64,000 bases of DNA from a virus (Duplodnaviria; Caudoviricetes), in IMG/VR virus record IMGVR_UViG_3300023218_000040, positions 64,001-128,000 of that record; one strand, given 5' to 3'. Under the pieces are notes generated by a model that was not told where the DNA came from, made no database searches, and saw only the letters and a list, made by a program, of their open reading frames with translations. Positions within the stretch are counted from its first letter, which is position 1; every line of letters begins with the position of its first letter. Of the stretch, positions 8,226 through 24,113 are shown piece by piece. The translations under genes and the position numbers were made by a program.

Positions 8226-8840
8226 TTAGATAGATAGGGGATCAGGGATACGGTATTGGCTTTCAGGGCGAGGCTTGTAATCTGAGACTGCTATGATAGC
8301 TTGCTCACGATCACAACCATATTCAGTCTGCTTGGAATCAACCTCGTCCCAGAATTCATCTTCTAGTTGTTTCTGTTTACCAACGAATTCATCAGTTGGT
8401 TGCTCACCAGGAAATACCTTGAATCGAGTTTTGGATTTAATGTCTGGATGGTTATCCCAGGTTTCTTTCCAAGCATTCTTGATGATCCATTCGATGTACT
8501 CAACCTTCTCTGCTACGCTATACTCAATACCATCGTTGTGAATATTGGGTGCAGTAATGTGTTTACCGTTGTTCTTGAGCTTTGGGAAAGACGGTAGGAT
8601 ATCAGTATAGCGTTCGTTGTAGTCACAGAGCTTCGCTGCTTGTTCTAACGTGAAGTCCTTACCACGGCATTTTCTCCAAAATGTCTGCTCAATGAACTTT
8701 TGAAACTCTTCACGAGTATCCAGCCAAGGCAAACAAAGCACGTCCATGTACCATTTGGCCATGGCATATTCTTCATCGGCTGTAAAGCATACGAACGAGA
8801 GCGTGCTCCCGTTCGATAGCTTCGTCTCCACTAGTTTCAT
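8226..8840 (-). CDS. Hypothetical protein
   Basis: 204-aa ORF translationally coupled (ATGA) to thyX. Confidence 0.75.
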   Translation of the reverse strand: MKLVETKLSNGSTLSFVCFTADEEYAMAKWYMDVLCLPWLDTREEFQKFIEQTFWRKCRGKDFTLEQAAKLCDYNERYTDILPSFPKLKNNGKHITAPNIHNDGIEYSVAEKVEYIEWIIKNAWKETWDNHPDIKSKTRFKVFPGEQPTDEFVGKQKQLEDEFWDEVDSKQTEYGCDREQAIIAVSDYKPRPESQYRIPDPLSI

Positions 8841-11800
8841 AGCATGAACTTATTCAAGAACTCCGTGATCTCTCGCTGTGAGCAACCTTTATCCTTCAGT
8901 TCTTTTGAAATCGGATCCTTATCGAGTCCACGAAGCAAATCACGGACTACCTCATATTCCATTCTACTCAATTGAGATCCCTCAAGCAAGTAGTCACGAA
9001 AAGCTTCTGTTGCCCATGGCACATGGGGCTCGATCAGTTCCAGAATAGCATCAGCAAATACTCGGATTTCGTACTGAGCATGTGGATCGCAGCGTAGCTT
9101 CAGGAAGTGGAACAGGTTATGTAGGTTACCCGACCAATACATTTGGCTGTACGTGGCAACAGGCAGTACCATACGAGCTAGCTCCCTGGCAATACCTGGG
9201 AAGTCACCAGCCAATTCTGACACACCGTTCTGCTCTAGATACGCTGTAATCGCCTCAGAGACGCTTTCCTCGGTGGGATAGGGGTCTACATTGCCAGCGT
9301 CCGCAGCACGCTTCCTGGCCTCCCTGACGGCTACTACGGCTGCTTCCTTGCACCACTCGATACGGCGGCGAACACCATCGGGTGGAGGAGTCAGATCTCC
9401 ATTTTCATTTGGACCTAGAAGATGAAGGTAAGTCTGATAGCTAGTATCGAATACCTCGTCAACAGCCGCCATGACCGCATTATATTCTTGTTCAGTCAGA
9501 ACGTCACCAGAACGACCCTGGCGGTTGCTGGTGCTTTGTGGAGCTAGATGCCCCAAGTCTGGGTGGTACATCTCTCCATCGAGAACTGAGTAACGTGCGC
9601 TGTACTCGTTGATCGAGTTATGAACAATCATTCCGTTTGCTACGAAATTGTGGTTTGGTCCCTCGACGCAGATGTCATACGTATCTTCTATTCCAATCAA
9701 CTCTATTTTGATGATTTTAGATGGTCGGGCTACCATCAAGTTGCCTTTCCCCTTACCTGCTCGATGCAACAACCCATCTCCATGCTCTTGACCGTGAGCC
9801 CTTCGGTGACAGGAGACACACAATGTTACTAGGTTATCGAAATCGTATGCGTGTTCAGGGTAATCAACAACCGGCAATACATGATGCACTTGGAGTTGAT
9901 TCTTGCTTGAACACTCGTTACATCTGTAGTCGAATTTTTCATGCACTTTTGGTGCTTGTGCAGTGGTCCATGCACCTATGAGTTGGCGTTCTGGGGTGAT
10001 CCCTCCTTTCCAGAAATTGCTATTTTCACCAGAGCGAGCACGCTTAATTGCCGATATGTGATCATCAGAATGAACCAAATTTGTACTATACCCATATACA
10101 TCTTTGTTCCATGGTTTATGACCTTTTTTGAAACGATTCTCACCGTTAGAAAACTGTAGACCATGAATACGAAGCCATTTTCTGATTGTATGGTAGCTAC
10201 AGCCAGCGTTTGATGCTATTTCTTGAACTGAATAACCAAGATTTCGTTGGTTATTCATCCAATTGAAATCCTGGTGTGCCGGTATCCCATTACACATAAC
10301 ATAGGCATCTTTGGTTATACACGCACGATTGTTTGTTACTGTTAAACCAACCGCATCTTCCAACCTCTGCCAACCATCAAGCGTATAAATCTGATGGTCC
10401 TTGGAACATTTGAGAGTCTTACCGTTTTCTAATGTTATTTCGAAGACCTGTTTTGGTCCACTGTATATTACATCATTGATTGTACCAGTTGTGAATTGTT
10501 CAGCGGATTCGTCATACACTCGAAGTAACATCGAACGAATTCTAGTTCTATTGAAATCTCTCAAAGATCTTTTCTGCTTGTCCTTTCTCTTTATCGGTGG
10601 ATTTTCATTCCATTTTCTATGAAGATCTGAAAGCTTCATGTATTTTGCTGTACGAACACCGAGCTTAATATGATCTGGCAACTCGAATGTGATAACAGAA
10701 TCGCCAGACAAACAGAACGTACGGTGGCGGTGCCACTGACGAAATACGAAGATCGGAGCCTTGACGTGAAACTTGAAGTTGCACATCTCGAATGGAGTCG
10801 AATTAGATGACACAAAACCATATTTAGTATTTGCTCCACGTACCATTAAAAAACCACTAGACGTAGTGGCACAATATACACTACCGGTATATTGAGATGT
10901 TGAATGGTATTGCTTCCTACTTTCAAGACTGGTACGCCCGTTTGGAAAATATATATTGACGGTGTAACCGCTTTGGCGTTCACGACAATAATGACTATCT
11001 AAACCTAAACGTGGTGAGATAGCAGACACTATGTCTGTGAGATTTTTGGATGTAGAACTAAATGATATTTGATGTCTATCACTTTTGTGATTTCCATCGC
11101 TTTCAACCAAACCAGTTAGTAGTCCTCGTAGTTCTTCTCCAGTTAGATTACGAAGATTTTCTAGTTGGAAATGTTTGTTGTTTGTTTGTGTATCTATTTC
11201 TAAACAAACTCGTAATTCATCTGGAGTAGTAATGTAGAACCTTGTTGTATCTTTACTATCCACCGAACTGGTGTATTCCCAACCCAATCTGTGAAGTAAA
11301 GAGGTTAAAAACGAAATCTTACGTTCCTTTTTGAATCCAAAACTAATCCTATTTGGACTTGCCACGTGACCATCACCAAGGAACATACCGACGAACGTAT
11401 AGAAATCATCAATCACACCGTTATACGGATGGGTTGAGTATCCTAACATGGATTCAAACCACCCCCACTTTGGCATGTCCTTTGCCCGATATACCTTGAA
11501 ATCGTTCTGATACTTTTCCTTAAACAACATTTTGTGTTCGTCGGTTACAGAGTATGACATTCTTTCATTGGAGAATTCATACATGATTCCATCGTAATCA
11601 AAGGATTTAACTTCTAACTCCTCGACTGTGTAAGAACGGGTATCGGGGTTAGGAACAAGAAAAGTTTCGACGGAATTACATTCACACCATTTCTTCCATC
11701 CTTCAATCGTTAAAACTTCCATATCTGGATGATAGCAATGTAGGTGACGCATGAGGTATCGGATCAACCCCTTATCGGAGTTAACCTTCTTTGTACCCTT

Positions 11801-11995
11801 GCCATATGAGACACGGGCTGCGTTCACAATGGACGAGTCATCGCCCATGAAGTCCACCAGACCGACAAAGCCGGTATCTAGAACCTTCCTGTACTGTGGC
11901 TGCCAGACACGAAACGTCTCATCGTGTTCTGCGCTACGAATAACGAATTCATCATCGAAGTCGTCCGGGACTTCTACTTTCACAAATCGAGTCAT
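8837..11995 (-). CDS. thyX: FAD-dependent thymidylate synthase ThyX precursor with two inteins (spliced product about 374 aa)
   Basis: IVNAARVSY, RHLH|STPFEM, RQWHRHRTF|SINEYSARYS (ThyX motif), RELARMVLP, NLHNLFHFLKLR...HAQYEIR. Confidence 0.95.
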   Translation of the reverse strand: MTRFVKVEVPDDFDDEFVIRSAEHDETFRVWQPQYRKVLDTGFVGLVDFMGDDSSIVNAARVSYGKGTKKVNSDKGLIRYLMRHLHCYHPDMEVLTIEGWKKWCECNSVETFLVPNPDTRSYTVEELEVKSFDYDGIMYEFSNERMSYSVTDEHKMLFKEKYQNDFKVYRAKDMPKWGWFESMLGYSTHPYNGVIDDFYTFVGMFLGDGHVASPNRISFGFKKERKISFLTSLLHRLGWEYTSSVDSKDTTRFYITTPDELRVCLEIDTQTNNKHFQLENLRNLTGEELRGLLTGLVESDGNHKSDRHQISFSSTSKNLTDIVSAISPRLGLDSHYCRERQSGYTVNIYFPNGRTSLESRKQYHSTSQYTGSVYCATTSSGFLMVRGANTKYGFVSSNSTPFEMCNFKFHVKAPIFVFRQWHRHRTFCLSGDSVITFELPDHIKLGVRTAKYMKLSDLHRKWNENPPIKRKDKQKRSLRDFNRTRIRSMLLRVYDESAEQFTTGTINDVIYSGPKQVFEITLENGKTLKCSKDHQIYTLDGWQRLEDAVGLTVTNNRACITKDAYVMCNGIPAHQDFNWMNNQRNLGYSVQEIASNAGCSYHTIRKWLRIHGLQFSNGENRFKKGHKPWNKDVYGYSTNLVHSDDHISAIKRARSGENSNFWKGGITPERQLIGAWTTAQAPKVHEKFDYRCNECSSKNQLQVHHVLPVVDYPEHAYDFDNLVTLCVSCHRRAHGQEHGDGLLHRAGKGKGNLMVARPSKIIKIELIGIEDTYDICVEGPNHNFVANGMIVHNSINEYSARYSVLDGEMYHPDLGHLAPQSTSNRQGRSGDVLTEQEYNAVMAAVDEVFDTSYQTYLHLLGPNENGDLTPPPDGVRRRIEWCKEAAVVAVREARKRAADAGNVDPYPTEESVSEAITAYLEQNGVSELAGDFPGIARELARMVLPVATYSQMYWSGNLHNLFHFLKLRCDPHAQYEIRVFADAILELIEPHVPWATEAFRDYLLEGSQLSRMEYEVVRDLLRGLDKDPISKELKDKGCSQREITEFLNKFML
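9617..10714 (-). mobile_element. Intein 2 in thyX (366 aa) with HNH endonuclease
   Basis: Starts CLSGDS, block B CSKDHQI, HNH CNEC...VHH...NLVTLCVSCH, ends IVHN|S. Confidence 0.92.
10802..11737 (-). mobile_element. Intein 1 in thyX (312 aa) with LAGLIDADG endonuclease
   Basis: Starts CYHPDMEVLT, block B VTDEH, FVGMFLGDG and LTGLVESDG, ends VSSN|S. Confidence 0.9.
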
Positions 11996-16895: not shown

Positions 16896-19808
16896 TTATG
16901 CTCCATACTCGATTTTGGACATTCTGTTCTCTTTGATGATTTTCATCACATCTTCAACACGAGCGGCAATGTCATCACGGTGAGTAATCAGGAAGGCACG
17001 CTTGCCTTTCTTGGTGCATGTCTCTTTGAGAGCACGTACAGCGTTTTCGGCACCACGAGGACAGATGCCAGAATCGATAAGCTCATCGACCGCCAACAGA
17101 TTGATGCTGTAGTTCATGAACTCGAATACGTCCTGGAATGCGAAGTTCAAAGCGATACGAACCCGGTTACGCTCACCTTTGGAGAGATTACCAAAGTCAA
17201 ACTCTTCGTGATAATCAGTAATGCTCACTGTCAGGTCTGGCTGGAAAGCTACGATGTGTGGTAGCTCCAGGATCTCCAGCCAATACGCAATTCTCTTGTT
17301 CAAGATTGGCATCCATCGGTCGATGATTAGCTTCCTCAAGAACGAATCTTTTTTTGTCAACAAATCTATGAGGTAGTTATAATGTGCGATCAGCAAACGT
17401 AAGTCCTTGATTTCACTCTCATCGACTTTCTTTATTGCTTCTTCACGAAATTTCGTTACACTTTCAACGTGCGGATTTTCGTCTACTTCTACTTTTTCTA
17501 GTTGCTCACGTAGAGCCTTGAGCGTGGCACCGGCACTAGCTGCTTCCTCTACCGATCCGTAAGTGAGGTTTAGGCGGTCGATGTCACGCAGAGCTTCATT
17601 GAGGTTGGAAATCTCTGTCTTGAGTTCGAGTTCTCTTTTCTCCAGGGTTTTCATTTCAGTAGTAACGTGAAGTTCTTTGTCCTTGCTTTCGGCGTACCGC
17701 AAGACAGCTTCTTCTAGACTTTCGGCCAAGGTCTTTTTGTACTCCGGATCAGCTACCCAATGTTGATTGCAGGTAGGACAGGTCTCTTCTTCTAGTTTAG
17801 CTAGTGACGCTTGGGTTTCGGTTACATACTGGTCATCACGTTTCTGTTGACGTTCATGTTCTTTCAATTCGTTCTGGCAGCGACGAACCTCAGATTTGAT
17901 CTCACGCAGGCCCGCTTCCAGTTCTTTCACCTGGGCGTAGGCGTCGGTTGCCAGATTGAGCATTTCGATTTCTTTCTTGACATCAACTGCCTCCAGGGTC
18001 TTGATTGTCTCCTGGAGTTCTGCTATAGTATCAGCTTTTTTCTTTTCCCACGCCTTGGATTTGGCTTCAAGCTCCTTAACCTGGGCTTCGATACGAGAAT
18101 TGGCTTGTTTGGTTGCTTCGATAGAGGATTCTGCGGTCAACAGATCTTTGTTCTTCTCCTTTCGTTCATCCTTGAGAAGCTTTGCCTTTTCGGTCATGAT
18201 GGTGAAACCGAACAGATGCTCGATCACATCACGGCGTTTGTCTTCTGGTAAACGGAAGAACTCCAGGGACTCGGAAGTATTGGCGACAAGATACTCGAAT
18301 AGGGTGATATCGAAACCGAGGATGCCAACGATCTGGTCAGTGGTTTCGTTCTTACCACGAGCTATATCGTGCTTGAGTTTTCGACCATCCTTGGCCTTGA
18401 AGTCAGAGTCATCATCTAGCTTTTTTCGGAACAAGAAGAGCTTGGATGGTCGTTCTGTTCGTTCAACGAGATAGCGGTACTCATCCTTGGTAAATTCGAC
18501 GCTGACTATCATTGAGCCCTTGGGCGATAGTTTATTGATGAGTTTCTGATTTGAGATGCCTCGAACCACCTTGCCAAACAAGGCGTAACATAAGGCGTCG
18601 ATGATTGCGGAATTATGTGTAACGACATAATTATCAGTTACGTATAGATGGTCAGGGTCAGAAACCGTTATACATTGTACCTCTTCCGAACATATTGGTT
18701 TGATGTCAATAATCTCTAAACGTAGAGAATTTTGGTACTGATAAGGTATCGGAAGTTTCTCAATCTTTCGTTGAAGTCGAAATAGGGTTTCTCTCTGAGG
18801 GTGACGTATACCAACACGATATGATGGCTGTCCCTGTCTTTTCTTCCCGTTATGAGTGTATAACTTGTTTAGTTCTGTTATTTTGGCGATGCCACCGATT
18901 TTCCATACCAAGTTTTGAACTTGTGAAGCAAGTACGGGGCTAGTAGTAGTGAATGAAACGGAACCATTAGCATCCACGGTACCATCTGAATCGAGTAGTC
19001 CTTGAAGAAGGTGTTTGGTTTGGGTAATAGACATTTCCATGTATGCATCAGGAATTGTCTTTTCCCAAGCCCGACTATCCCACATGCCCAAGGAACGTAG
19101 ATGAATAGAAACGGGATTGAACCCTTTAGATCCATCAGTAATAGTGTAAGTAAGCTTGTTTGGTCCTCGGACCTCTACCCCATCGGGAAGTATTGAGCGA
19201 ACAGTCTCTACAATTGCCTCATCTTTGGTGGTGAATCGAACACCAGAAGTGAAATTACCGTCACCGATGAGTATACCTAATAGATATGGATCTATTGGTA
19301 CATTTGTATCTGTGCGTTTCATTTCGCCTGGGAATAGGGGGACGTAAGTGCGCCCAGATGCACCTGGGAACTTTTCTCGATGCTTAATTATATCGAACGT
19401 AGATTGAACGGACCATCCCCAATTAGAACCATTCCGATTCCAAATCTTCCACAGATGATCTCCACAGCATTTAACCACCCGTCCGTCTGAAAAGGTAACT
19501 GCAAATACATCTCGAATTCCACGGGGATGCACTCCTGTTACAATTGTAGGTTTTCCGGTCCCAGAGATGATGCAGGAGCCAATTTCCATCTCTCCCATAG
19601 TTGACCAACCATAAGGAGTTAGGATTTTAGAATCTAAAGGTTGAGCTTTTCCACAACCATTTCTGGAATCTTCTCCCCCGGTATCTCGGTTCTCACCCAG
19701 CACAACAGTGATATGATCGCCCCCAAGGGGAACAACCACTTCCTTCGCTCCAAAGGAGAGGAAGTTTCTCAGTCGTAACTCATTAAACTCTAAAGCTTGA
19801 TTCGCCAT
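16896..19808 (-). CDS. gp46: Recombination ATPase gp46/SbcC/Rad50 precursor with an intein in Walker A
   Basis: LRLRNFLSFG, NGCGK|S, Zn-hook CPTC, signature LSKGE, Walker B LLAVDE; start MANQAL (track start 19832). Confidence 0.92.
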   Translation of the reverse strand: MANQALEFNELRLRNFLSFGAKEVVVPLGGDHITVVLGENRDTGGEDSRNGCGKAQPLDSKILTPYGWSTMGEMEIGSCIISGTGKPTIVTGVHPRGIRDVFAVTFSDGRVVKCCGDHLWKIWNRNGSNWGWSVQSTFDIIKHREKFPGASGRTYVPLFPGEMKRTDTNVPIDPYLLGILIGDGNFTSGVRFTTKDEAIVETVRSILPDGVEVRGPNKLTYTITDGSKGFNPVSIHLRSLGMWDSRAWEKTIPDAYMEMSITQTKHLLQGLLDSDGTVDANGSVSFTTTSPVLASQVQNLVWKIGGIAKITELNKLYTHNGKKRQGQPSYRVGIRHPQRETLFRLQRKIEKLPIPYQYQNSLRLEIIDIKPICSEEVQCITVSDPDHLYVTDNYVVTHNSAIIDALCYALFGKVVRGISNQKLINKLSPKGSMIVSVEFTKDEYRYLVERTERPSKLFLFRKKLDDDSDFKAKDGRKLKHDIARGKNETTDQIVGILGFDITLFEYLVANTSESLEFFRLPEDKRRDVIEHLFGFTIMTEKAKLLKDERKEKNKDLLTAESSIEATKQANSRIEAQVKELEAKSKAWEKKKADTIAELQETIKTLEAVDVKKEIEMLNLATDAYAQVKELEAGLREIKSEVRRCQNELKEHERQQKRDDQYVTETQASLAKLEEETCPTCNQHWVADPEYKKTLAESLEEAVLRYAESKDKELHVTTEMKTLEKRELELKTEISNLNEALRDIDRLNLTYGSVEEAASAGATLKALREQLEKVEVDENPHVESVTKFREEAIKKVDESEIKDLRLLIAHYNYLIDLLTKKDSFLRKLIIDRWMPILNKRIAYWLEILELPHIVAFQPDLTVSITDYHEEFDFGNLSKGERNRVRIALNFAFQDVFEFMNYSINLLAVDELIDSGICPRGAENAVRALKETCTKKGKRAFLITHRDDIAARVEDVMKIIKENRMSKIEYGA
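18612..19646 (-). mobile_element. Intein in gp46 (345 aa), Ala-start, class-3 signature, LAGLIDADG endonuclease
   Basis: Starts AQPLDSKILTP; block B GDHLW; block F VQCITV; ends VTHN|S; LLGILIGDG and LLQGLLDSDG. Confidence 0.9.
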
Positions 19809-20034
19809 CGTAATCCTGCTTAGATAACACATCCGGGTGAATGGACCACTTAAAGACTAGCGTTTCGCCGTCTTTTCCGCTTGTCCTAAAAACGATATGG
19901 TTTTTTTCACACTCAGTCAAGAATGCGTAGACTTCGGCTTTGTCTAGATCCATGAATTCACTAATCCCTTGTGATGAAATAGAACCGTTTTCTAGGATGT
20001 ATTCCAAAATCTCATGTTGTAGCTCAGTATTCAT
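19783..20034 (-). CDS. Small winged-helix DNA-binding protein
   Basis: QHEILEYILENGSISSQGISEFMDLDKAEVYAFLTECEKNHIV fits a wHTH pattern. Confidence 0.55.
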   Translation of the reverse strand: MNTELQHEILEYILENGSISSQGISEFMDLDKAEVYAFLTECEKNHIVFRTSGKDGETLVFKWSIHPDVLSKQDYDGESSFRV

Positions 20035-20286: not shown

Positions 20287-21333
20287 CTAATTTCCTACAC
20301 TCTGATATAGTTGTACCAGTAATTCAGAGTCGTATTTCGATCCCTCGGTGTCGATTTCTCGTAGATGCTGAATCACGAGTTGATCGACACTTAATCCATC
20401 CTCTGGAATGTCTGTTCCCTCATCCACACCCAAAGCGTCTCGCTTTGGTCGAAGCCTGATATCTCTTACGTGCTCGGACAGGATGTTAGAGATTTCGGTT
20501 GCTTCCTCAATTTCGATACCCATGTCGTCCTGGCACTCGACAACACTTCTGTCGTTGTAGGTGTTTTCGTATGCCCCATTCTCGATTTCACCAAGTAACT
20601 TGGAGAGCTTGATACGATGGAAATTGGGTGCTTCCTCCCAATTAACGAACTCTGGGTCTTTACCCCATTCTAGAATCATGCATCCACGTTTGTTGTCACC
20701 AACATCGTTGAAGTCATGAGGAAAGCAGTTACCAATGTACCAGATTGGTACTCCGTTCTCGTTGACCTTCAACTGTCTCTTGTGGAAGTGACCACTGAAC
20801 ACGGCATCGCACTGGTAAAAATGGTCACCGTGCAAACCACCACGGTCGGGCATTTCGACCATTTCATTTAATAGGAACAAAGGTAATTCAAAGTGTCCGA
20901 ATACATACTTTACTTCGTATGAAGGTGGATCGGTGAATTCATTTCCTACCAACCACGGGCAGAACAGAACATCATCGATTTCGGTGATGGAGTTGATGAC
21001 CGTGATACTGTCTTGAGTTAGGTAGGGAAGAGAGTGGACATTCCGGTTGGTTTTGAAAAACAGGTCGTGGTTGCCCATCAGCCAGTAGATTGGAAGTCCA
21101 GTAGCAACCAATCTTTCGATGGCTTGCCAAGAGTAGTTGACGGTATCCACACGCAGACGTGAGCGATTGTCATACCAATCACCCATGAATATGATGGTAT
21201 CGCAATCGTGTTCATTCACCTGACTGATGAACCAATCCACGAAATCCAGGCAGTCTTGATTGTGCTGCTCGGAGTCAGATTTTTTACCGAAATGGATATC
21301 AGTGAATACTGCGGCTTTTTCGAACAGTGTCAT
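20287..21333 (-). CDS. gp47: Recombination nuclease gp47/SbcD/Mre11
   Basis: TDIHFG, FMGDWYD, MGNHD, FGHFE, SGHFH metallophosphoesterase motifs. Confidence 0.92.
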   Translation of the reverse strand: MTLFEKAAVFTDIHFGKKSDSEQHNQDCLDFVDWFISQVNEHDCDTIIFMGDWYDNRSRLRVDTVNYSWQAIERLVATGLPIYWLMGNHDLFFKTNRNVHSLPYLTQDSITVINSITEIDDVLFCPWLVGNEFTDPPSYEVKYVFGHFELPLFLLNEMVEMPDRGGLHGDHFYQCDAVFSGHFHKRQLKVNENGVPIWYIGNCFPHDFNDVGDNKRGCMILEWGKDPEFVNWEEAPNFHRIKLSKLLGEIENGAYENTYNDRSVVECQDDMGIEIEEATEISNILSEHVRDIRLRPKRDALGVDEGTDIPEDGLSVDQLVIQHLREIDTEGSKYDSELLVQLYQSVGN

Positions 21334-21653
21334 TATTGCTTGGGATCGTTGACTTCTAGCTTTCGTAGGTTCTTCAGTTGAACGTATATGTTGTTTTCGC
21401 CATTGGCGGGATATCCCTCAAAGTATCCCTGCTCGTGCCAGAATTCAAGAGTTGCAGCATAGAATCCTGGCTCATTAGGAAAACCATCCATAAAATCCGA
21501 GTTGTCCTCGATGCACAAACCATCCAACCAGTCCTCGGTAATGAGTTGATGCAGATCACGTGGATTTGGTGTACTCACCAAATAGGTAAGAATAGACTCA
21601 CGCAGTCCAATCGCCGCAAAATGGGCATTCTCAATAGCCTTAATCTTCTTCAT
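21333..21653 (-). CDS. Hypothetical protein
   Basis: Start MKKIKAIE preferred (track start 21707 overlaps gp55); TAATG coupling to gp47. Confidence 0.65.
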   Translation of the reverse strand: MKKIKAIENAHFAAIGLRESILTYLVSTPNPRDLHQLITEDWLDGLCIEDNSDFMDGFPNEPGFYAATLEFWHEQGYFEGYPANGENNIYVQLKNLRKLEVNDPKQ

Positions 21654-23124
21654 CTTCTTGAGCCTCGTAGAATTCACGCTCGATACGATCCATCCTAACA
21701 GAGTCATTCTCTAGCTGTCTAGTGTTTGATGGATTGAAACCGTTTTGCTCCAATAAGTCGTCACGAATTTTACGGGCCTTTTTCTCCTTCTCCAAAGTCG
21801 TCAAGAAACTATGATGAACGATCTGGGTGTAGTAGCCGAATGGATTTTGACCTACTTCTGGATCGAACTTTAGTGCTCCGTTCAGTAGAGACACCAGAGC
21901 TTCGCTTCGCATGTCTTCGATGTAGGTATTTCCGGTAAGGAATACAGTACCATTACGACGAGCCATAAAACAGCCGTATTCGGTTTCCGGACACCAAACC
22001 CGTCCCTTGTAATATTCCGTAGGAATGTTTGGATTAAATACTTTGGACTTCCCCGAACGTCCGCTTTTTCCTCCATGGAAGTCGATATTTTCAACCTTGG
22101 AATATTCACCCTTGGCGAATACCCTAACGGTATACGTATCCTTTTTGCCGTGTCCAATAGGAGGTCTGATACGAACTGTTGTTCTTTTACCACTGAGCGT
22201 ACATAACGCCACAAAAAAGTCAATTTGCTCTTCCGATGTTTGTGTGTAATTGGTATACCCATTGGTTTTCCAACCGTCGCCATCAACCATAGTATCAATC
22301 AGTAAACGGCGCTGATTAGTAGATAGGTTCATCAAAAATTTATAGGTTGGAACTTTATTTGGTGCAACCGATTCTATCAACTGGCAGAGTTCTTTGGTCA
22401 AGTAGAATGATACTTGTTCTGGTACATTCTCGCCCACAACACGAGTACGCTTATACTCTGCAATTTGATAACCGAGGTCAGCAACACATGCCCGAATTCT
22501 ATCGGAAAACTCGCCCTCATTCTGATAAATCGTGATGCGGGTGTAGTTGCGGTTTTCGGATAGGTAGTAATTTCCTTCGGTAATAACCCAACCGACCAAT
22601 TCCACGAACGCATCGGAATATACACCACCTGGAGATTCCAAGGCTGTCCCAATCATTACAAGATTGTCCTGTTCACGAAGGTAATCTACTCGGCGCAGTC
22701 CATTTGTTGTCATGAACTTATGTCCTGGAGTAACCAAGGAGTCCATTCCTTGGACAGTCATGCGGAACATATGACCATCATAGTCGTCTTTGAATATGGA
22801 ACGAATTCTTGACCACACAAGTTTACTATCGTCATAAGATAGGATTTGGTCATCGGTAGTTACATCATCGATCCCTAGCCACCCACGTTGTGTCATACAC
22901 TCTGTGTGTTCATCAACGCAATATCCACGCCAGTTGGCTTTCTTGGAGTAGCGGTCCACCAACATCATTAGCATCTTGACTAATTCTTGGGTCATACATT
23001 GGGCGGGGGTCACATCGGGATTTTTCTTTTGCTTCTCAGCTAGCATAGTCTTGGATAGTCGAATTTGCTCCATAAGGCTTGCATTGTTTAGGTAATTGGT
23101 GGTTCTTTTCTTTCTGGTAACCAT
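21640..23124 (-). CDS. gp55: Late-transcription sigma factor gp55 precursor with an intein (spliced product 163 aa)
   Basis: NYLNN, NWRGY|TYIEDMRSEAL, KFDPEVGQNPFGYYTQI..HSFL...EKEKK; upstream of gp47-gp46 as in T4. Confidence 0.88.
   Translation of the reverse strand: MVTRKKRTTNYLNNASLMEQIRLSKTMLAEKQKKNPDVTPAQCMTQELVKMLMMLVDRYSKKANWRGYCVDEHTECMTQRGWLGIDDVTTDDQILSYDDSKLVWSRIRSIFKDDYDGHMFRMTVQGMDSLVTPGHKFMTTNGLRRVDYLREQDNLVMIGTALESPGGVYSDAFVELVGWVITEGNYYLSENRNYTRITIYQNEGEFSDRIRACVADLGYQIAEYKRTRVVGENVPEQVSFYLTKELCQLIESVAPNKVPTYKFLMNLSTNQRRLLIDTMVDGDGWKTNGYTNYTQTSEEQIDFFVALCTLSGKRTTVRIRPPIGHGKKDTYTVRVFAKGEYSKVENIDFHGGKSGRSGKSKVFNPNIPTEYYKGRVWCPETEYGCFMARRNGTVFLTGNTYIEDMRSEALVSLLNGALKFDPEVGQNPFGYYTQIVHHSFLTTLEKEKKARKIRDDLLEQNGFNPSNTRQLENDSVRMDRIEREFYEAQEDEED
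21928..22920 (-). mobile_element. Intein in gp55 (331 aa) with LAGLIDADG endonuclease
   Basis: Starts CVDEHTECMTQRGW; block B VTPGHKF; LVGWVITEG and DTMVDGDG; ends VWCPET..CFMARRNGTVFLTGN|T. Confidence 0.9.
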
Positions 23125-23220
23125 TAAAGCATTCCTCTTTTCCCCTCTTGAGTGTTTCTCAAGAAATTAATATGTTAGGAACATGAACACTTTCCTCATA
23201 AAAGTCAATAGATTTTCCTT

Positions 23221-23227
23221 GTAAATA
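23221..23227 (+). promoter_or_regulatory. Late promoter motif GTAAATA for the baseplate operon
   Basis: 19 nt upstream of ATG 23247. Confidence 0.65.
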
Positions 23228-23246
23228 TCCGAAGAGGAAACTACCT

Positions 23247-24113
23247 ATGGCCCAACTAGATAATCGACCTACTTTCGCCTTTGAACATGTGGCTGCAAAG
23301 CTAGAACCATTTGATCTCATGCGTCTAGCGTTTGTGACTGGTTCTGAAGATACAAGGCAGCAAACAAGCGAGAAGCTTCAGTTGGCTCTTAGCGGACCTC
23401 TCGGCGGTGCTGGCGCTGATGTTGCGGCTGTCCAATCTGTTCGCTCGCAGTTGGATGGAATTCGCACTCCACGAGGACGCTCCAGTGATGAGCATGCCTT
23501 GGCACCAATCTTCGCCACGGGTGGACTAGTCTTTCCTTATAATCCCACTGTGTCAGAAAAGATGTCTGTTAAGTATGATGCTGTTGAATTAACGCACTCA
23601 AACGAGTCGTACCACGTATATCGTTCTACGGATAACGTTCGCATCAGCATTTCAGAAGCAGTATGGACATGCGACACATTTGCAAATGCTGTCTATGCAC
23701 TATCCGTTATTCACTTTTTGAGAACCTATAGTCAGATGGATTTCGGTCGAAATCGAACCGGTCGTCCACCTTCTCCTATGTGGTTTTCTGCTTTTGGAAA
23801 TTACGCATTCCATCGAGTTCCGGTCTTATTGGAGTCGGCTGATTGGAGCTTTCCTAGCGATGTGGACTACGTGGGCATACCAGAGTTTGGAACACCTGAG
23901 CATGCGAGTGGACAGCTACGATTTGAAAGAACTCCTGATGGAAACTACACATGGTTGCCAATGGTGTTCAAGATTCCTTCCATCCAGTTGATTGTTCAAC
24001 ACTCCCCAAGGTACTGGATCAACTATAGCCTGGATGACTTTCGTTCAGGGAAGATGCTACGAGATCGAAAGAGTTTTCACGTTCTCCCAGGCAACACGAA
24101 CAGGAGAAAGTAA
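23247..24113 (+). CDS. Tail tube initiator / baseplate tube-cap-like protein
   Basis: LVFPYNP...THSN..., GRPPSP, VPVLLES..WSFP.DVDY, WLP pattern; first gene of the baseplate operon. Confidence 0.65.
   Translation: MAQLDNRPTFAFEHVAAKLEPFDLMRLAFVTGSEDTRQQTSEKLQLALSGPLGGAGADVAAVQSVRSQLDGIRTPRGRSSDEHALAPIFATGGLVFPYNPTVSEKMSVKYDAVELTHSNESYHVYRSTDNVRISISEAVWTCDTFANAVYALSVIHFLRTYSQMDFGRNRTGRPPSPMWFSAFGNYAFHRVPVLLESADWSFPSDVDYVGIPEFGTPEHASGQLRFERTPDGNYTWLPMVFKIPSIQLIVQHSPRYWINYSLDDFRSGKMLRDRKSFHVLPGNTNRRK

What the first reader, a model, noticed from the sequence alone, without database searches (positions are those of the whole stretch)
21640..23124. Late sigma factor gp55 is split by an endonuclease-bearing intein
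Seen: a 331-aa intein (C...TGN|T, Thr +1, LAGLIDADG) inserted at NWRGY|TYIEDM; removing it restores a contiguous 163-aa gp55. Known: inteins mostly occupy replication, recombination and nucleotide enzymes. A sigma factor is an unusual host, and I cannot check whether this site is catalogued. Inference: all late transcription depends on splicing, so this Cys-rich intein could act as a redox-, metal- or temperature-sensitive gate or timer on virion assembly.
Basis: partly seen in the sequence, partly recalled or inferred. Interest (0 to 1): 0.85.

Follow-up and report, generated by a model that had tools for sequence, protein, structure and literature searches.

The report
Homing intein inside phage late sigma factor
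The late-gene sigma factor (T4 gp55 type) of an uncultured jumbo phage really is interrupted by a self-splicing, endonuclease-carrying intein; this looks like an undescribed host site for a known phage intein family, and it behaves like an ordinary selfish element, not a demonstrated regulatory switch.

Summary
ORF 21640-23124 (-) encodes 494 aa: a 68-aa N-extein, a 331-aa intein and a 95-aa C-extein. Its nearest extein relatives are intein-free and read NWRGY|TYI(D/E)DM without a break, which fixes the splice junctions.

- **Fold:** the AlphaFold2 model (pLDDT 90.5) matches solved intein-endonucleases and I-DmoI.
- **Host protein:** it is a gp55 homologue. A profile of intein-free alleles hits T4 gp55 (PDB 7D7C) at E=3e-21.
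- **Insertion site:** it equals T4 Y63|T64, in the H2-H3 loop beside the residues that bind the RNA polymerase clamp helices.
- **Spread:** the same intein sits at the same site in at least 130 metagenomic protein clusters and in Synechococcus phages B3 and B23, where it is not annotated. Intein-free alleles and shortened forms are interspersed among them, as in a homing cycle.
- **Relatives:** the closest known inteins are actinophage class 1 inteins with the same C1...VWC...TGN|S/T signature. One of that type (Bethlehem gp51) splices fast and completely.
- **Genome context:** the 204-kb record carries at least seven inteins.

The "Cys-rich" claim fails (7 Cys in 331 aa), and nothing supports a timer or gate. 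I found no paper describing a sigma-factor or gp55 intein. The scan noted no gp55 intein on other DNA, only this same stretch again in an overlapping window.

The parts
21640..23124 (-). gp55-type late sigma factor precursor ORF (494 aa plus stop), P0001
   Evidence: Open frame. PHROG 12791 and 234 late sigma factor, E=4e-30 and 9e-24.
22921..23124 (-). N-extein, residues 1-68 (helices H1-H2 of gp55, ending NWRGY)
   Evidence: Aligns with T4 gp55 residues 1-63 through the profile of intein-free homologues.
21928..22920 (-). Intein, residues 69-399 (331 aa), Cys1 to Asn399
   Evidence: AF2 pLDDT 90.5. Foldseek matches to TliVMA, PhoVMA, PI-SceI and PI-PfuI.
22630..22920 (-). N-terminal splicing (HINT) lobe, about residues 69-165. 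Holds block A Cys1 (22918-22920) and block B T132-P-G-H135.
   Evidence: C69, T132 and H135 are invariant in 86 homologues. All-beta segment in the AF2 model.
22090..22629 (-). LAGLIDADG homing endonuclease domain, about residues 166-345. Motif 1 is LVGWVITEGN (E183); motif 2 is LLIDTMVDGDGW (D283).
   Evidence: Pfam LAGLIDADG_3. Foldseek to I-DmoI, TM 0.6-0.68 by target. E183 is kept in 73 of 79 and D283 in 78 of 81 homologues that have the domain.
21928..22089 (-). C-terminal splicing lobe, about residues 346-399. Holds block F VWC378PETEYGCF (Cys at F:4, codon 21991-21993) and block G FLT397-G398-N399 (Asn codon 21928-21930).
   Evidence: W377 and C378 are invariant. T397, G398 and N399 are nearly invariant.
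21640..21927 (-). C-extein, residues 400-494 plus stop. Thr+1 is at 21925-21927. Covers gp55 helices H3-H5, including D404 and E408, which correspond to T4 E70 and D74.
   Evidence: T4 residue roles from PMC7892883.

Best explanation
This is a mobile, splicing-competent intein with a LAGLIDADG homing endonuclease. It sits in the most conserved stretch of a T4 gp55-type late sigma factor: the H2-H3 loop, at the sigma region 2.1/2.2 boundary, equivalent to T4 Y63|T64.

The gene is translated as a 494-aa precursor. The intein most likely removes itself by the class 1 pathway:
1. Cys69 makes the N-S acyl shift.
2. Thr400 takes over the N-extein.
3. Asn399 cyclises.

This releases a 163-aa gp55 (...NWRGY-TYIEDM...) and a free 331-aa endonuclease. 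That endonuclease can cut intein-free gp55 alleles of co-infecting relatives and copy the intein in (homing).

By analogy with its closest tested relatives, splicing is probably fast and constitutive, so the intein is a tolerated parasite and not a regulator.

**Shown here:** the anatomy, the conserved catalytic residues, the fold, the exact restoration of the host sequence, the recurrence at one site, and the patchy distribution.

**Inferred:** actual splicing, endonuclease activity, kinetics, and that the precursor is inactive.
For: - **Junctions and arithmetic:**
- **Intein-free alleles:** the nearest extein relatives and a syntenic locus read NWRGY|TYI(D/E)DM without a break.
- **Same site in 130 homologous alleles:** Y(-1) 130/130, Cys1 130/130, terminal Asn 127/130, +1 Thr or Ser 127/130, penultimate Gly 122/130.
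- **Invariant catalytic residues:** C69, T132, H135, W377 and C378 are invariant in 86 sequences.
- **Fold:** AF2 pLDDT 90.5. Top Foldseek hits are endonuclease-bearing inteins and I-DmoI.
- **Host protein:** the intein-free profile matches T4 gp55 (PDB 7D7C) at E=3e-21. gp47 and gp46 lie next to it.
- **Patchy distribution:** the extein tree needs at least 27 changes of intein state, with at least 9 forced by well-supported branches. Nine alleles are shortened to 148-297 aa.
- **Endonuclease acidic residues:** kept in more than 90% of alleles.
- **Known relatives:** actinophage inteins share C1...VWC...TGN|S. The Bethlehem gp51 intein with penultimate Gly splices completely, and its endonuclease is toxic in E. 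coli (PMC5050341).
- **Intein load:** at least seven inteins in the 204-kb record.
- **Composition:** intein GC equals extein GC (0.434 against 0.436-0.438), so it is a long-term resident.
Against: - No experiment here shows splicing or DNA cleavage.
- The penultimate His is missing (Gly398), and Cys replaces the usual Asp at block F:4, so the chemistry may differ from textbook class 1.
- Identity to the tested actinophage inteins is only 22-30%, and I checked the sequence of the U2 orthologue, not Bethlehem gp51 itself. Fast constitutive splicing is therefore an analogy.
- The splicing lobes are as conserved as the exteins (60-74% against 58-62% mean pairwise identity), and one large extein clade is almost fixed for the intein (84 of 88 rows). 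This is also compatible with some benefit to the phage. That count is biased, though, because the intein-bearing rows came from a search with the intein-bearing query.
Confidence: 0.8

Rival explanations
1. Conditional protein splicing. Splicing of the gp55 precursor is held back by oxidation, metal or temperature, for example through a reversible disulfide between the two active-site cysteines Cys69 (A:1) and Cys378 (F:4). The intein would then gate or time late transcription.
For: - Two invariant cysteines lie in the splicing active site.
- A block F:4 catalytic Cys forms a reversible intramolecular disulfide in the M. smegmatis DnaBi1 intein, which makes splicing sensitive to H2O2 (PMC6195587).
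- The insertion lies 4-8 residues before the acidic helix H3 residues that bind the beta-prime clamp helices in T4 gp55 (PMC7892883; mapping). An unspliced precursor is therefore probably inactive.
- Only one gp55 gene is found in the record.
Against: - The intein is not Cys-rich (7 of 331).
- The nearest relatives do without the intein.
- A tested relative with the same C-terminal signature splices completely without any trigger.
- The same genome has inteins in TerL, ThyX (two), gp46, an IMPDH-like gene and a B12-domain gene. This fits indiscriminate invasion.
Confidence: 0.1
2. The intein uses a class 3-type pathway. Cys378 at block F:4, not Cys69, attacks the N-terminal junction first, giving a block F branched thioester. 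The N-extein then passes to Thr400.
For: - Cys at F:4 is invariant, Thr at G:5 is nearly invariant, and +1 is Thr or Ser. These are all class 3 hallmarks (definitions in PMC2807308).
- A related Gordonia phage portal intein has the full W-C-T triplet together with Cys1.
- Class 3 inteins with a non-Trp residue at B:12 and no penultimate His exist (PMC7891396).
Against: - Cys1 is invariant in 130 of 130 alleles, which argues that it is needed.
- B:12 is Phe, Leu or Met in 77 of 86 sequences and Trp in only 3.
- Kelley et al. treat the related penultimate-Gly RDF intein as class 1.
Confidence: 0.12
3. The intein is dead. The gene is then a disrupted gp55, and the late sigma function comes from elsewhere or from cleavage products.
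For: The penultimate His is missing. The record is only about 55% complete, so a second sigma gene cannot be excluded.
Against: - The frame is open over 494 codons.
- All nucleophiles and block B Thr and His are invariant across homologues at about 48% identity.
- The splicing lobes are under constraint as strong as the exteins.
- Penultimate Gly is the family norm, and it works in a tested relative.
Confidence: 0.03

Closest known systems
Actinobacteriophage class 1 inteins with penultimate Gly: the cluster A metallophosphoesterase/RDF intein (Bethlehem gp51, U2 gp51), the Bobi-type DNA methylase intein and the Gordonia Woes-type portal intein (Kelley et al. 2016, PMC5050341)
   Same: - They have the same architecture: HINT domain plus LAGLIDADG domain.
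- They share the signature Cys1, block B TxxH, VWC at block F (Cys at F:4), and (L/I/F)-T-G-N followed by Ser or Thr at +1 (alignment).
- tblastn finds them as the only non-gp55 relatives, at 25-27% identity.
- The Bethlehem gp51 intein splices completely, and its endonuclease is toxic in E. coli.
   Different: - The host proteins differ (portal, TerL, methylase and phosphoesterase against a sigma factor).
- The host phages differ (siphoviruses of Actinobacteria against an uncultured jumbo T4-superfamily myovirus).
- Identity is only 22-30%.
- +1 is mostly Thr here.
Unannotated gp55 inteins of Synechococcus phages B3 and B23 (MN695334, MN695335; B23 gp289, "hypothetical protein; phage T4-like gp55", 504 aa)
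   Same: The same intein family sits at the same site (YKPNFANY|CVDSST...VYLTGN|SYKEDL). Identity is 38.8% over residues 2-441 by tblastn and 45% against the query's intein-centred segment (residues 60-410) in the multiple alignment. gp47 and gp46 lie downstream.
   Different: They are a different phage lineage (Kyanoviridae, 244 kb). The record does not annotate the intein. +1 is Ser.
Class 3 inteins (WCT motif; MP-Be DnaB, Msm DnaBi1)
   Same: Cys at block F:4, Thr at G:5 and Thr or Ser at +1, with a proposed phage origin. A canonical class 3 intein sits in the gp46 gene 2 kb away in this same window.
   Different: Here Cys1 is present and invariant, and B:12 is Phe or Leu, not Trp. The defining absence of the N-terminal nucleophile is not met.
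Bacteriophage T4 gp55 late sigma factor (PDB 7D7C/7D7D; Shi et al. 2021, PMC7892883)
   Same: - The exteins align over T4 residues 1-116 (profile E=3e-21).
- The model has the same helix layout H1-H5.
- The gene neighbours gp47 and gp46.
   Different: T4 gp55 has no intein. T4 has a two-residue insertion after the site (GYT-QS-WKQEM).
Endonuclease-bearing inteins with solved structures (PI-SceI, PI-PfuI, TliVMA, PhoVMA)
   Same: The overall two-domain fold matches (Foldseek E=2.8e-15 to 1e-8).
   Different: Sequence identity is only 9-16%, and no PDB hit is found by sequence. Those inteins carry the usual penultimate His and block F Asp; I state that from general knowledge and did not check it here.

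Membership tests
Intein (HINT protein-splicing domain) | Nucleophile at intein position 1 (Cys or Ser) | tested here: met
   Cys69. It is Cys in 130 of 130 alleles.
Intein (HINT protein-splicing domain) | Block B Thr (B:7) and His (B:10) | tested here: met
   T132-P-G-H135, invariant in 86 sequences. Numbering follows PMC2807308.
Intein (HINT protein-splicing domain) | C-terminal Asn (or Gln/Asp) followed by Cys, Ser or Thr at +1 | tested here: met
   N399|T400. Asn in 127 of 130, Gln in 2. +1 is Thr in 104 and Ser in 23.
Intein (HINT protein-splicing domain) | Penultimate His (common, not obligatory) | tested here: not met
   Gly398, which is Gly in 122 of 130. Functional inteins with penultimate Gly are documented (PMC5050341).
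Intein (HINT protein-splicing domain) | Removal restores a contiguous, conserved host protein | tested here: met
   Intein-free homologues read NWRGY|TYI(D/E)DM.
Intein (HINT protein-splicing domain) | HINT fold | tested here: met
   AF2 model with pLDDT 90.5. Foldseek probability 1.00 to TliVMA, PhoVMA, PI-SceI and PI-PfuI.
Intein (HINT protein-splicing domain) | Protein splicing actually occurs | not testable with these tools
   This needs expression and detection of the ligated product.
LAGLIDADG homing endonuclease | Two LAGLIDADG helices, each ending in an acidic residue followed by Gly | tested here: met
   ...VITE183-G184 and ...MVD283-G284. E is kept in 73 of 79 and D in 78 of 81 homologues that have the domain.
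LAGLIDADG homing endonuclease | Alpha-beta-beta-alpha-beta-beta-alpha fold like I-DmoI or PI-SceI | tested here: met
   Foldseek to I-DmoI: TM 0.6-0.68 normalised by target, rmsd about 3.8 A over 173 columns.
LAGLIDADG homing endonuclease | Site-specific cleavage of the intein-free allele | not testable with these tools
   A candidate target from the syntenic intein-free locus L013 is given.
Class 3 intein | No Cys, Ser or Thr nucleophile at position 1 | tested here: not met
   Cys69 is invariant.
Class 3 intein | Trp at block B position 12 | tested here: not met
   Phe137. Across 86 sequences: F 55, L 17, M 5, W 3.
Class 3 intein | Cys at block F position 4 | tested here: met
   Cys378 is invariant.
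Class 3 intein | Thr at block G position 5 | tested here: met
   Thr397, present in 78 of 86.
T4 gp55-type late sigma factor | Sequence homology to gp55 (sigma region 2-like domain) | tested here: met
   PHROG 12791 and 234 at E=4e-30 and 9e-24. The profile of intein-free homologues matches PDB 7D7C_F at E=3e-21. Weak Pfam Sigma70_r2 hit.
T4 gp55-type late sigma factor | Acidic H3 residues that bind the beta-prime clamp helices (T4 E70, D74, E77) | tested here: inconclusive
   D404 and E408 align with E70 and D74, but V411 aligns with E77.
T4 gp55-type late sigma factor | Directs transcription from late promoters together with gp33 and gp45 | not tested
   I did not look for promoters or for gp33 and gp45 homologues.

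The most novel reading that the evidence does not exclude
The invariant active-site pair Cys69 (A:1) and Cys378 (F:4) forms a reversible disulfide under oxidising conditions. That stalls splicing, so gp55 maturation, and with it all late transcription, becomes redox-gated in a widespread clade of jumbo phages and some cyanophages. This would be a natural protein-splicing switch on a sigma factor.
Probability: 0.08. Interest if true: 0.75.

Novelty: new member of a known kind. Interest (0 to 1): 0.4.

Why it matters
- **New host class:** it adds a transcription initiation factor to the proteins that natural inteins invade. The site is functionally critical, at the region 2.1/2.2 boundary next to the RNA polymerase-binding helix.
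- **Breadth:** the allele is common in uncultured jumbo phages and occurs unannotated in deposited cyanophage genomes.
- **Annotation:** gp55 genes of about 500-620 aa should be read as precursors.
- **Intein biology:** it provides a large natural series (full-length, mini and double-intein alleles, next to intein-free alleles) of a class 1 family that carries the class 3-type F:4 Cys and G:5 Thr. This is useful for studying how the splicing classes relate.
- **Testability:** if splicing proved conditional, it would be a simple post-translational switch on the whole late programme. Nothing here shows that.

Tried and rejected
- **Megablast of 21000-24000 against phage records:** no match, so there is no close cultured relative. 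The portal is only about 37% identical to PA5oct and Atu_ph07 jumbo phages.
- **phmmer of the intein against PDB sequences:** no hit at E<=0.01. The fold search was needed instead.
- **Tori & Perler 2011** (class 3 definition paper): not held. Its content was taken second-hand from PMC3196547.
- **Literature searches** for intein plus gp55, late sigma factor, or cyanophage sigma factor, and a wider search on insertion sites: nothing on a natural sigma-factor intein.
- **"Cys-rich" claim:** rejected on counting.
- **Recent foreign origin:** rejected. Intein and extein GC are equal (GC3 is somewhat lower in the intein, 0.41 against 0.51).
- **Pattern scan of IMG/VR with the intein:** only 7 loci, because it needs near-exact peptide words. 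It is not a measure of abundance.
- **Intein-state counts on the extein tree:** these come from two differently biased searches and a short alignment (122 columns). I rely only on the qualitative result, which is that the two states are interleaved.
- **Cys69-Cys378 distance:** could not be measured, because model coordinates are not returned.
Full report
**1. Observation**

The minus-strand ORF 21640..23124 is open for 494 codons. It splits into three parts:
- residues 1-68, ending NWRGY;
- residues 69-399, a 331-aa intein running CVDEHTEC...VFLTGN;
- residues 400-494, starting TYIEDM.

The two exteins together make 163 aa. In window coordinates the intein is 21928-22920.

Family searches support the parts:
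- PHROG late-sigma families match the exteins (E=4e-30 and 9e-24).
- Pfam gives sub-threshold hits to Intein_splicing, LAGLIDADG_3 and Sigma70_r2.

There are 7 Cys in 331 residues.

**2. The junctions are exact**

I searched the 95-aa C-extein against 1.84 billion cluster representatives. It gave 1058 hits at E<=1e-3.
- The best hits (P0124-P0131, 56-72% identity) are short proteins that read ...NWRGY|TYIDDM... with nothing in between.
- Of the 148 newly listed representatives among the 150 shown, 123 are intein-free, 14 carry the intein, and 11 are N-terminally truncated. Three of the truncated ones begin inside the intein's C-terminus (...TGN).

One intein-free allele (P0125) lies on a 24-kb contig in the same gene order as the window: baseplate-like genes, gp55, a small ORF, gp47, gp46. 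There both gp55 (215 aa) and gp46 (625 aa) lack inteins. At the DNA level its site reads AACTGGCGCGGGTAC|ACTTACATCGATGAT, against AACTGGCGTGGATAT|ACCTACATCGAAGAC for the joined window exteins.

**3. It is a conserved intein allele, not a one-off**

A word-indexed search with the whole precursor found 424 proteins. Most are about 600 aa and 45-54% identical over about 87% of the query, on contigs up to 638 kb. Alignments and junction parsing show the same intein at the same site in 130 proteins:

| Position | Residue counts (of 130) |
|---|---|
| -1 | Tyr 130 |
| 1 | Cys 130 |
| penultimate | Gly 122 |
| last | Asn 127, Gln 2 |
| +1 | Thr 104, Ser 23 |

- Lengths cluster at 322-351 aa. Nine alleles are shortened to 148-297 aa, so the endonuclease is lost or decaying.
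- One protein (P0006) carries a second, mini-intein at NPFAYY|C...GN|T, in sigma region 2.3.
- Among cultured phages only Synechococcus phages B3 and B23 share it. It is not annotated there (B23 gp289, "hypothetical protein; T4-like gp55").

On a tree of the extein core, the intein state needs at least 27 changes, and at least 9 are forced by well-supported branches. The window's gene sits in a small clade with one intein-bearing and several intein-free alleles. The sampling is biased and the alignment is short, but the interleaving is clear. This is the pattern of invasion, decay and loss expected of a homing element.

**4. Fold and catalytic residues**

AlphaFold2 with 86 homologues gives mean pLDDT 90.5. 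The model shows:
- extein helices 14-34 and 46-60;
- a beta-rich lobe at 75-156;
- an alpha/beta domain at 171-343;
- a second beta lobe at 370-398;
- extein helices 402-419, 428-460 and 467-493.

Foldseek's best PDB matches are endonuclease-bearing inteins (TliVMA, PhoVMA, PI-SceI, PI-PfuI, PI-TkoII) and the monomeric LAGLIDADG enzyme I-DmoI.

Residue conservation:
- Invariant: C69, T132, H135, W377 and C378.
- Nearly invariant: T397, G398 and N399.
- The two LAGLIDADG acidic residues (E183, D283) are kept in more than 90% of alleles that have the domain.

Mean pairwise identity by region:

| Region | Mean pairwise identity |
|---|---|
| Splicing lobes | 60-74% |
| Endonuclease domain | 47% |
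| Extein cores | 58-62% |

The splicing function is therefore under constraint at least as strong as the sigma factor itself.

**5. Where it sits in the sigma factor**

A profile of 33 intein-free homologues matches T4 gp55 (PDB 7D7C chain F) at E=3e-21, and more weakly matches region 2 of a SigA.
- The site corresponds to T4 Y63|T64, in the loop between helices H2 and H3.
- In sigma-70 terms this is the region 2.1/2.2 boundary, three residues before the DLIQEG-type helix.
- In T4, H3 residues E70, D74 and E77 bind the beta-prime clamp helices (PMC7892883). Here D404 and E408 align with the first two.

A 331-aa insertion at this point should block RNA polymerase binding until it is spliced out. 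That is an inference.

**6. Which kind of intein**

Block numbering follows PMC2807308. The intein has Cys at A:1, Thr and His at B:7 and B:10, Phe at B:12, Cys at F:4, Thr at G:5, Gly at G:6 and Asn at G:7, followed by Thr at +1.
- Cys F:4, Thr G:5 and a hydroxyl +1 residue are class 3 hallmarks.
- The defining loss of the position-1 nucleophile is not met, and B:12 is not Trp.

The only other relatives found by tblastn are actinophage inteins in portal, TerL, DNA methylase and metallophosphoesterase/RDF genes. Alignment shows they share C1...VWC...(L/I/F)TGN|S. The Gordonia portal intein even has Trp at B:12.

Kelley et al. tested the Bethlehem gp51 RDF intein, which has penultimate Gly (PMC5050341):
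- It splices essentially completely.
- Changing Gly to His slows it.
- Its endonuclease is toxic in E. coli.

I checked the sequence of the orthologous U2 gp51 intein, not Bethlehem's. The best reading is a class 1 intein of this phage family that splices quickly. A class 3-type first step by Cys378 cannot be excluded without mutants.

**7. Context**

The window is part of a 204-kb IMG/VR record that CheckV rates about 55% complete. The identical protein lies on a 360-kb contig. Its portal is about 37% identical to those of jumbo phages PA5oct and Atu_ph07.

Only one gp55 gene is found in the record. The record is very rich in inteins:
- a canonical class 3 (WCT, Ala1) LAGLIDADG intein in the Walker A motif of gp46;
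- two inteins in ThyX, one LAGLIDADG and one HNH;
- inteins in TerL, in an IMPDH/GMP-reductase-like gene and in a B12-binding-domain protein.

The intein's GC content equals that of the exteins.

**8. Interpretation**

Everything fits an ordinary mobile intein in an unusual host gene. The gate or timer idea has one mechanistic hook: two invariant active-site cysteines, with a precedent for an F:4 Cys disulfide switch in Msm DnaBi1 (PMC6195587). Against it stand four points:
- the nearest relatives have intein-free alleles;
- a tested relative splices constitutively;
- the genome is generally loaded with inteins;
- there is no cysteine enrichment.

I put the gate at about 10%.

**9. Novelty**

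I found no paper that describes an intein in gp55 or in any natural sigma factor. InBase and subscription literature could not be checked.

Earlier notes of this scan describe a ~110-130-aa domain inserted between H1 and H2 of jumbo-phage gp55 proteins (e1-272605, e1-133548). The long (~600 aa) intein-bearing homologues carry such an extra stretch, but the window's protein does not. No gp55 intein was noted on other DNA; the only other note is the same stretch read again (e1-5362856).

Verdict: a real feature, a new host site for a known intein family, and of moderate interest.

Noticed in passing
window 16896-19832 (-): The gp46 (Rad50/SbcC-like) gene is 978 aa because a canonical class 3 intein sits inside its Walker A motif (NGCGK|AQPLDSKILTPYGW...VQCITV...YVVTHN|SAIIDAL). 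It has Ala1, Trp at B:12, Cys at F:4, Thr at G:5 and two LAGLIDADG motifs. The syntenic relative L013 has an intein-free 625-aa gp46.
   Followed up: partly
window 8837-11995 (-): The ThyX gene (1052 aa) carries two inteins. One is a LAGLIDADG intein at RHLH|C...GFVSSN|STPFEM. The other is an HNH-endonuclease intein at HRHRTF|C...GMIVHN|SINEYSARY.
   Followed up: partly
same genome outside the window: L011/L012 (G000:C1 about 18.8-20.0 kb), L008 (about 136.2-137.2 kb), L010 (about 152.3-152.7 kb): There are further LAGLIDADG inteins in the large terminase, in a 998-aa B12-binding-domain protein and in an IMPDH/GMP-reductase-like protein. That makes at least seven inteins in 204 kb.
   Followed up: partly
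P0006 (metagenomic gp55 homologue, 772 aa): This protein has a second, endonuclease-less intein of the same family at a second gp55 site (NPFAYY|C...LTGN|T, sigma region 2.3), in addition to the one at NWRGY|C.
   Followed up: no
P0011, P0014, P0045, P0077 and most ~600-aa homologues: The long-form gp55 proteins from contigs up to 638 kb carry about 110-130 extra residues between helix H1 (YLTNKDLLEEIHRSK) and H2. The scan noted this inserted domain earlier in jumbo coliphages. The window's gp55 lacks it.
   Followed up: no
window 21333-21707 (-): A 124-aa ORF with no PHROG match overlaps the 3' end of gp55 by 68 nt as listed. A homologous 115-aa ORF overlaps gp55 in the relative L013, so the small gene is conserved and its true start may lie further downstream.
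   Followed up: no
L001 (Synechococcus phage B23, MN695335, 174984-176498): The deposited annotation calls the 504-aa intein-bearing gp55 a "hypothetical protein" and does not mark the intein. Phage B3 (MN695334) gives an identical tblastn match.
   Followed up: partly
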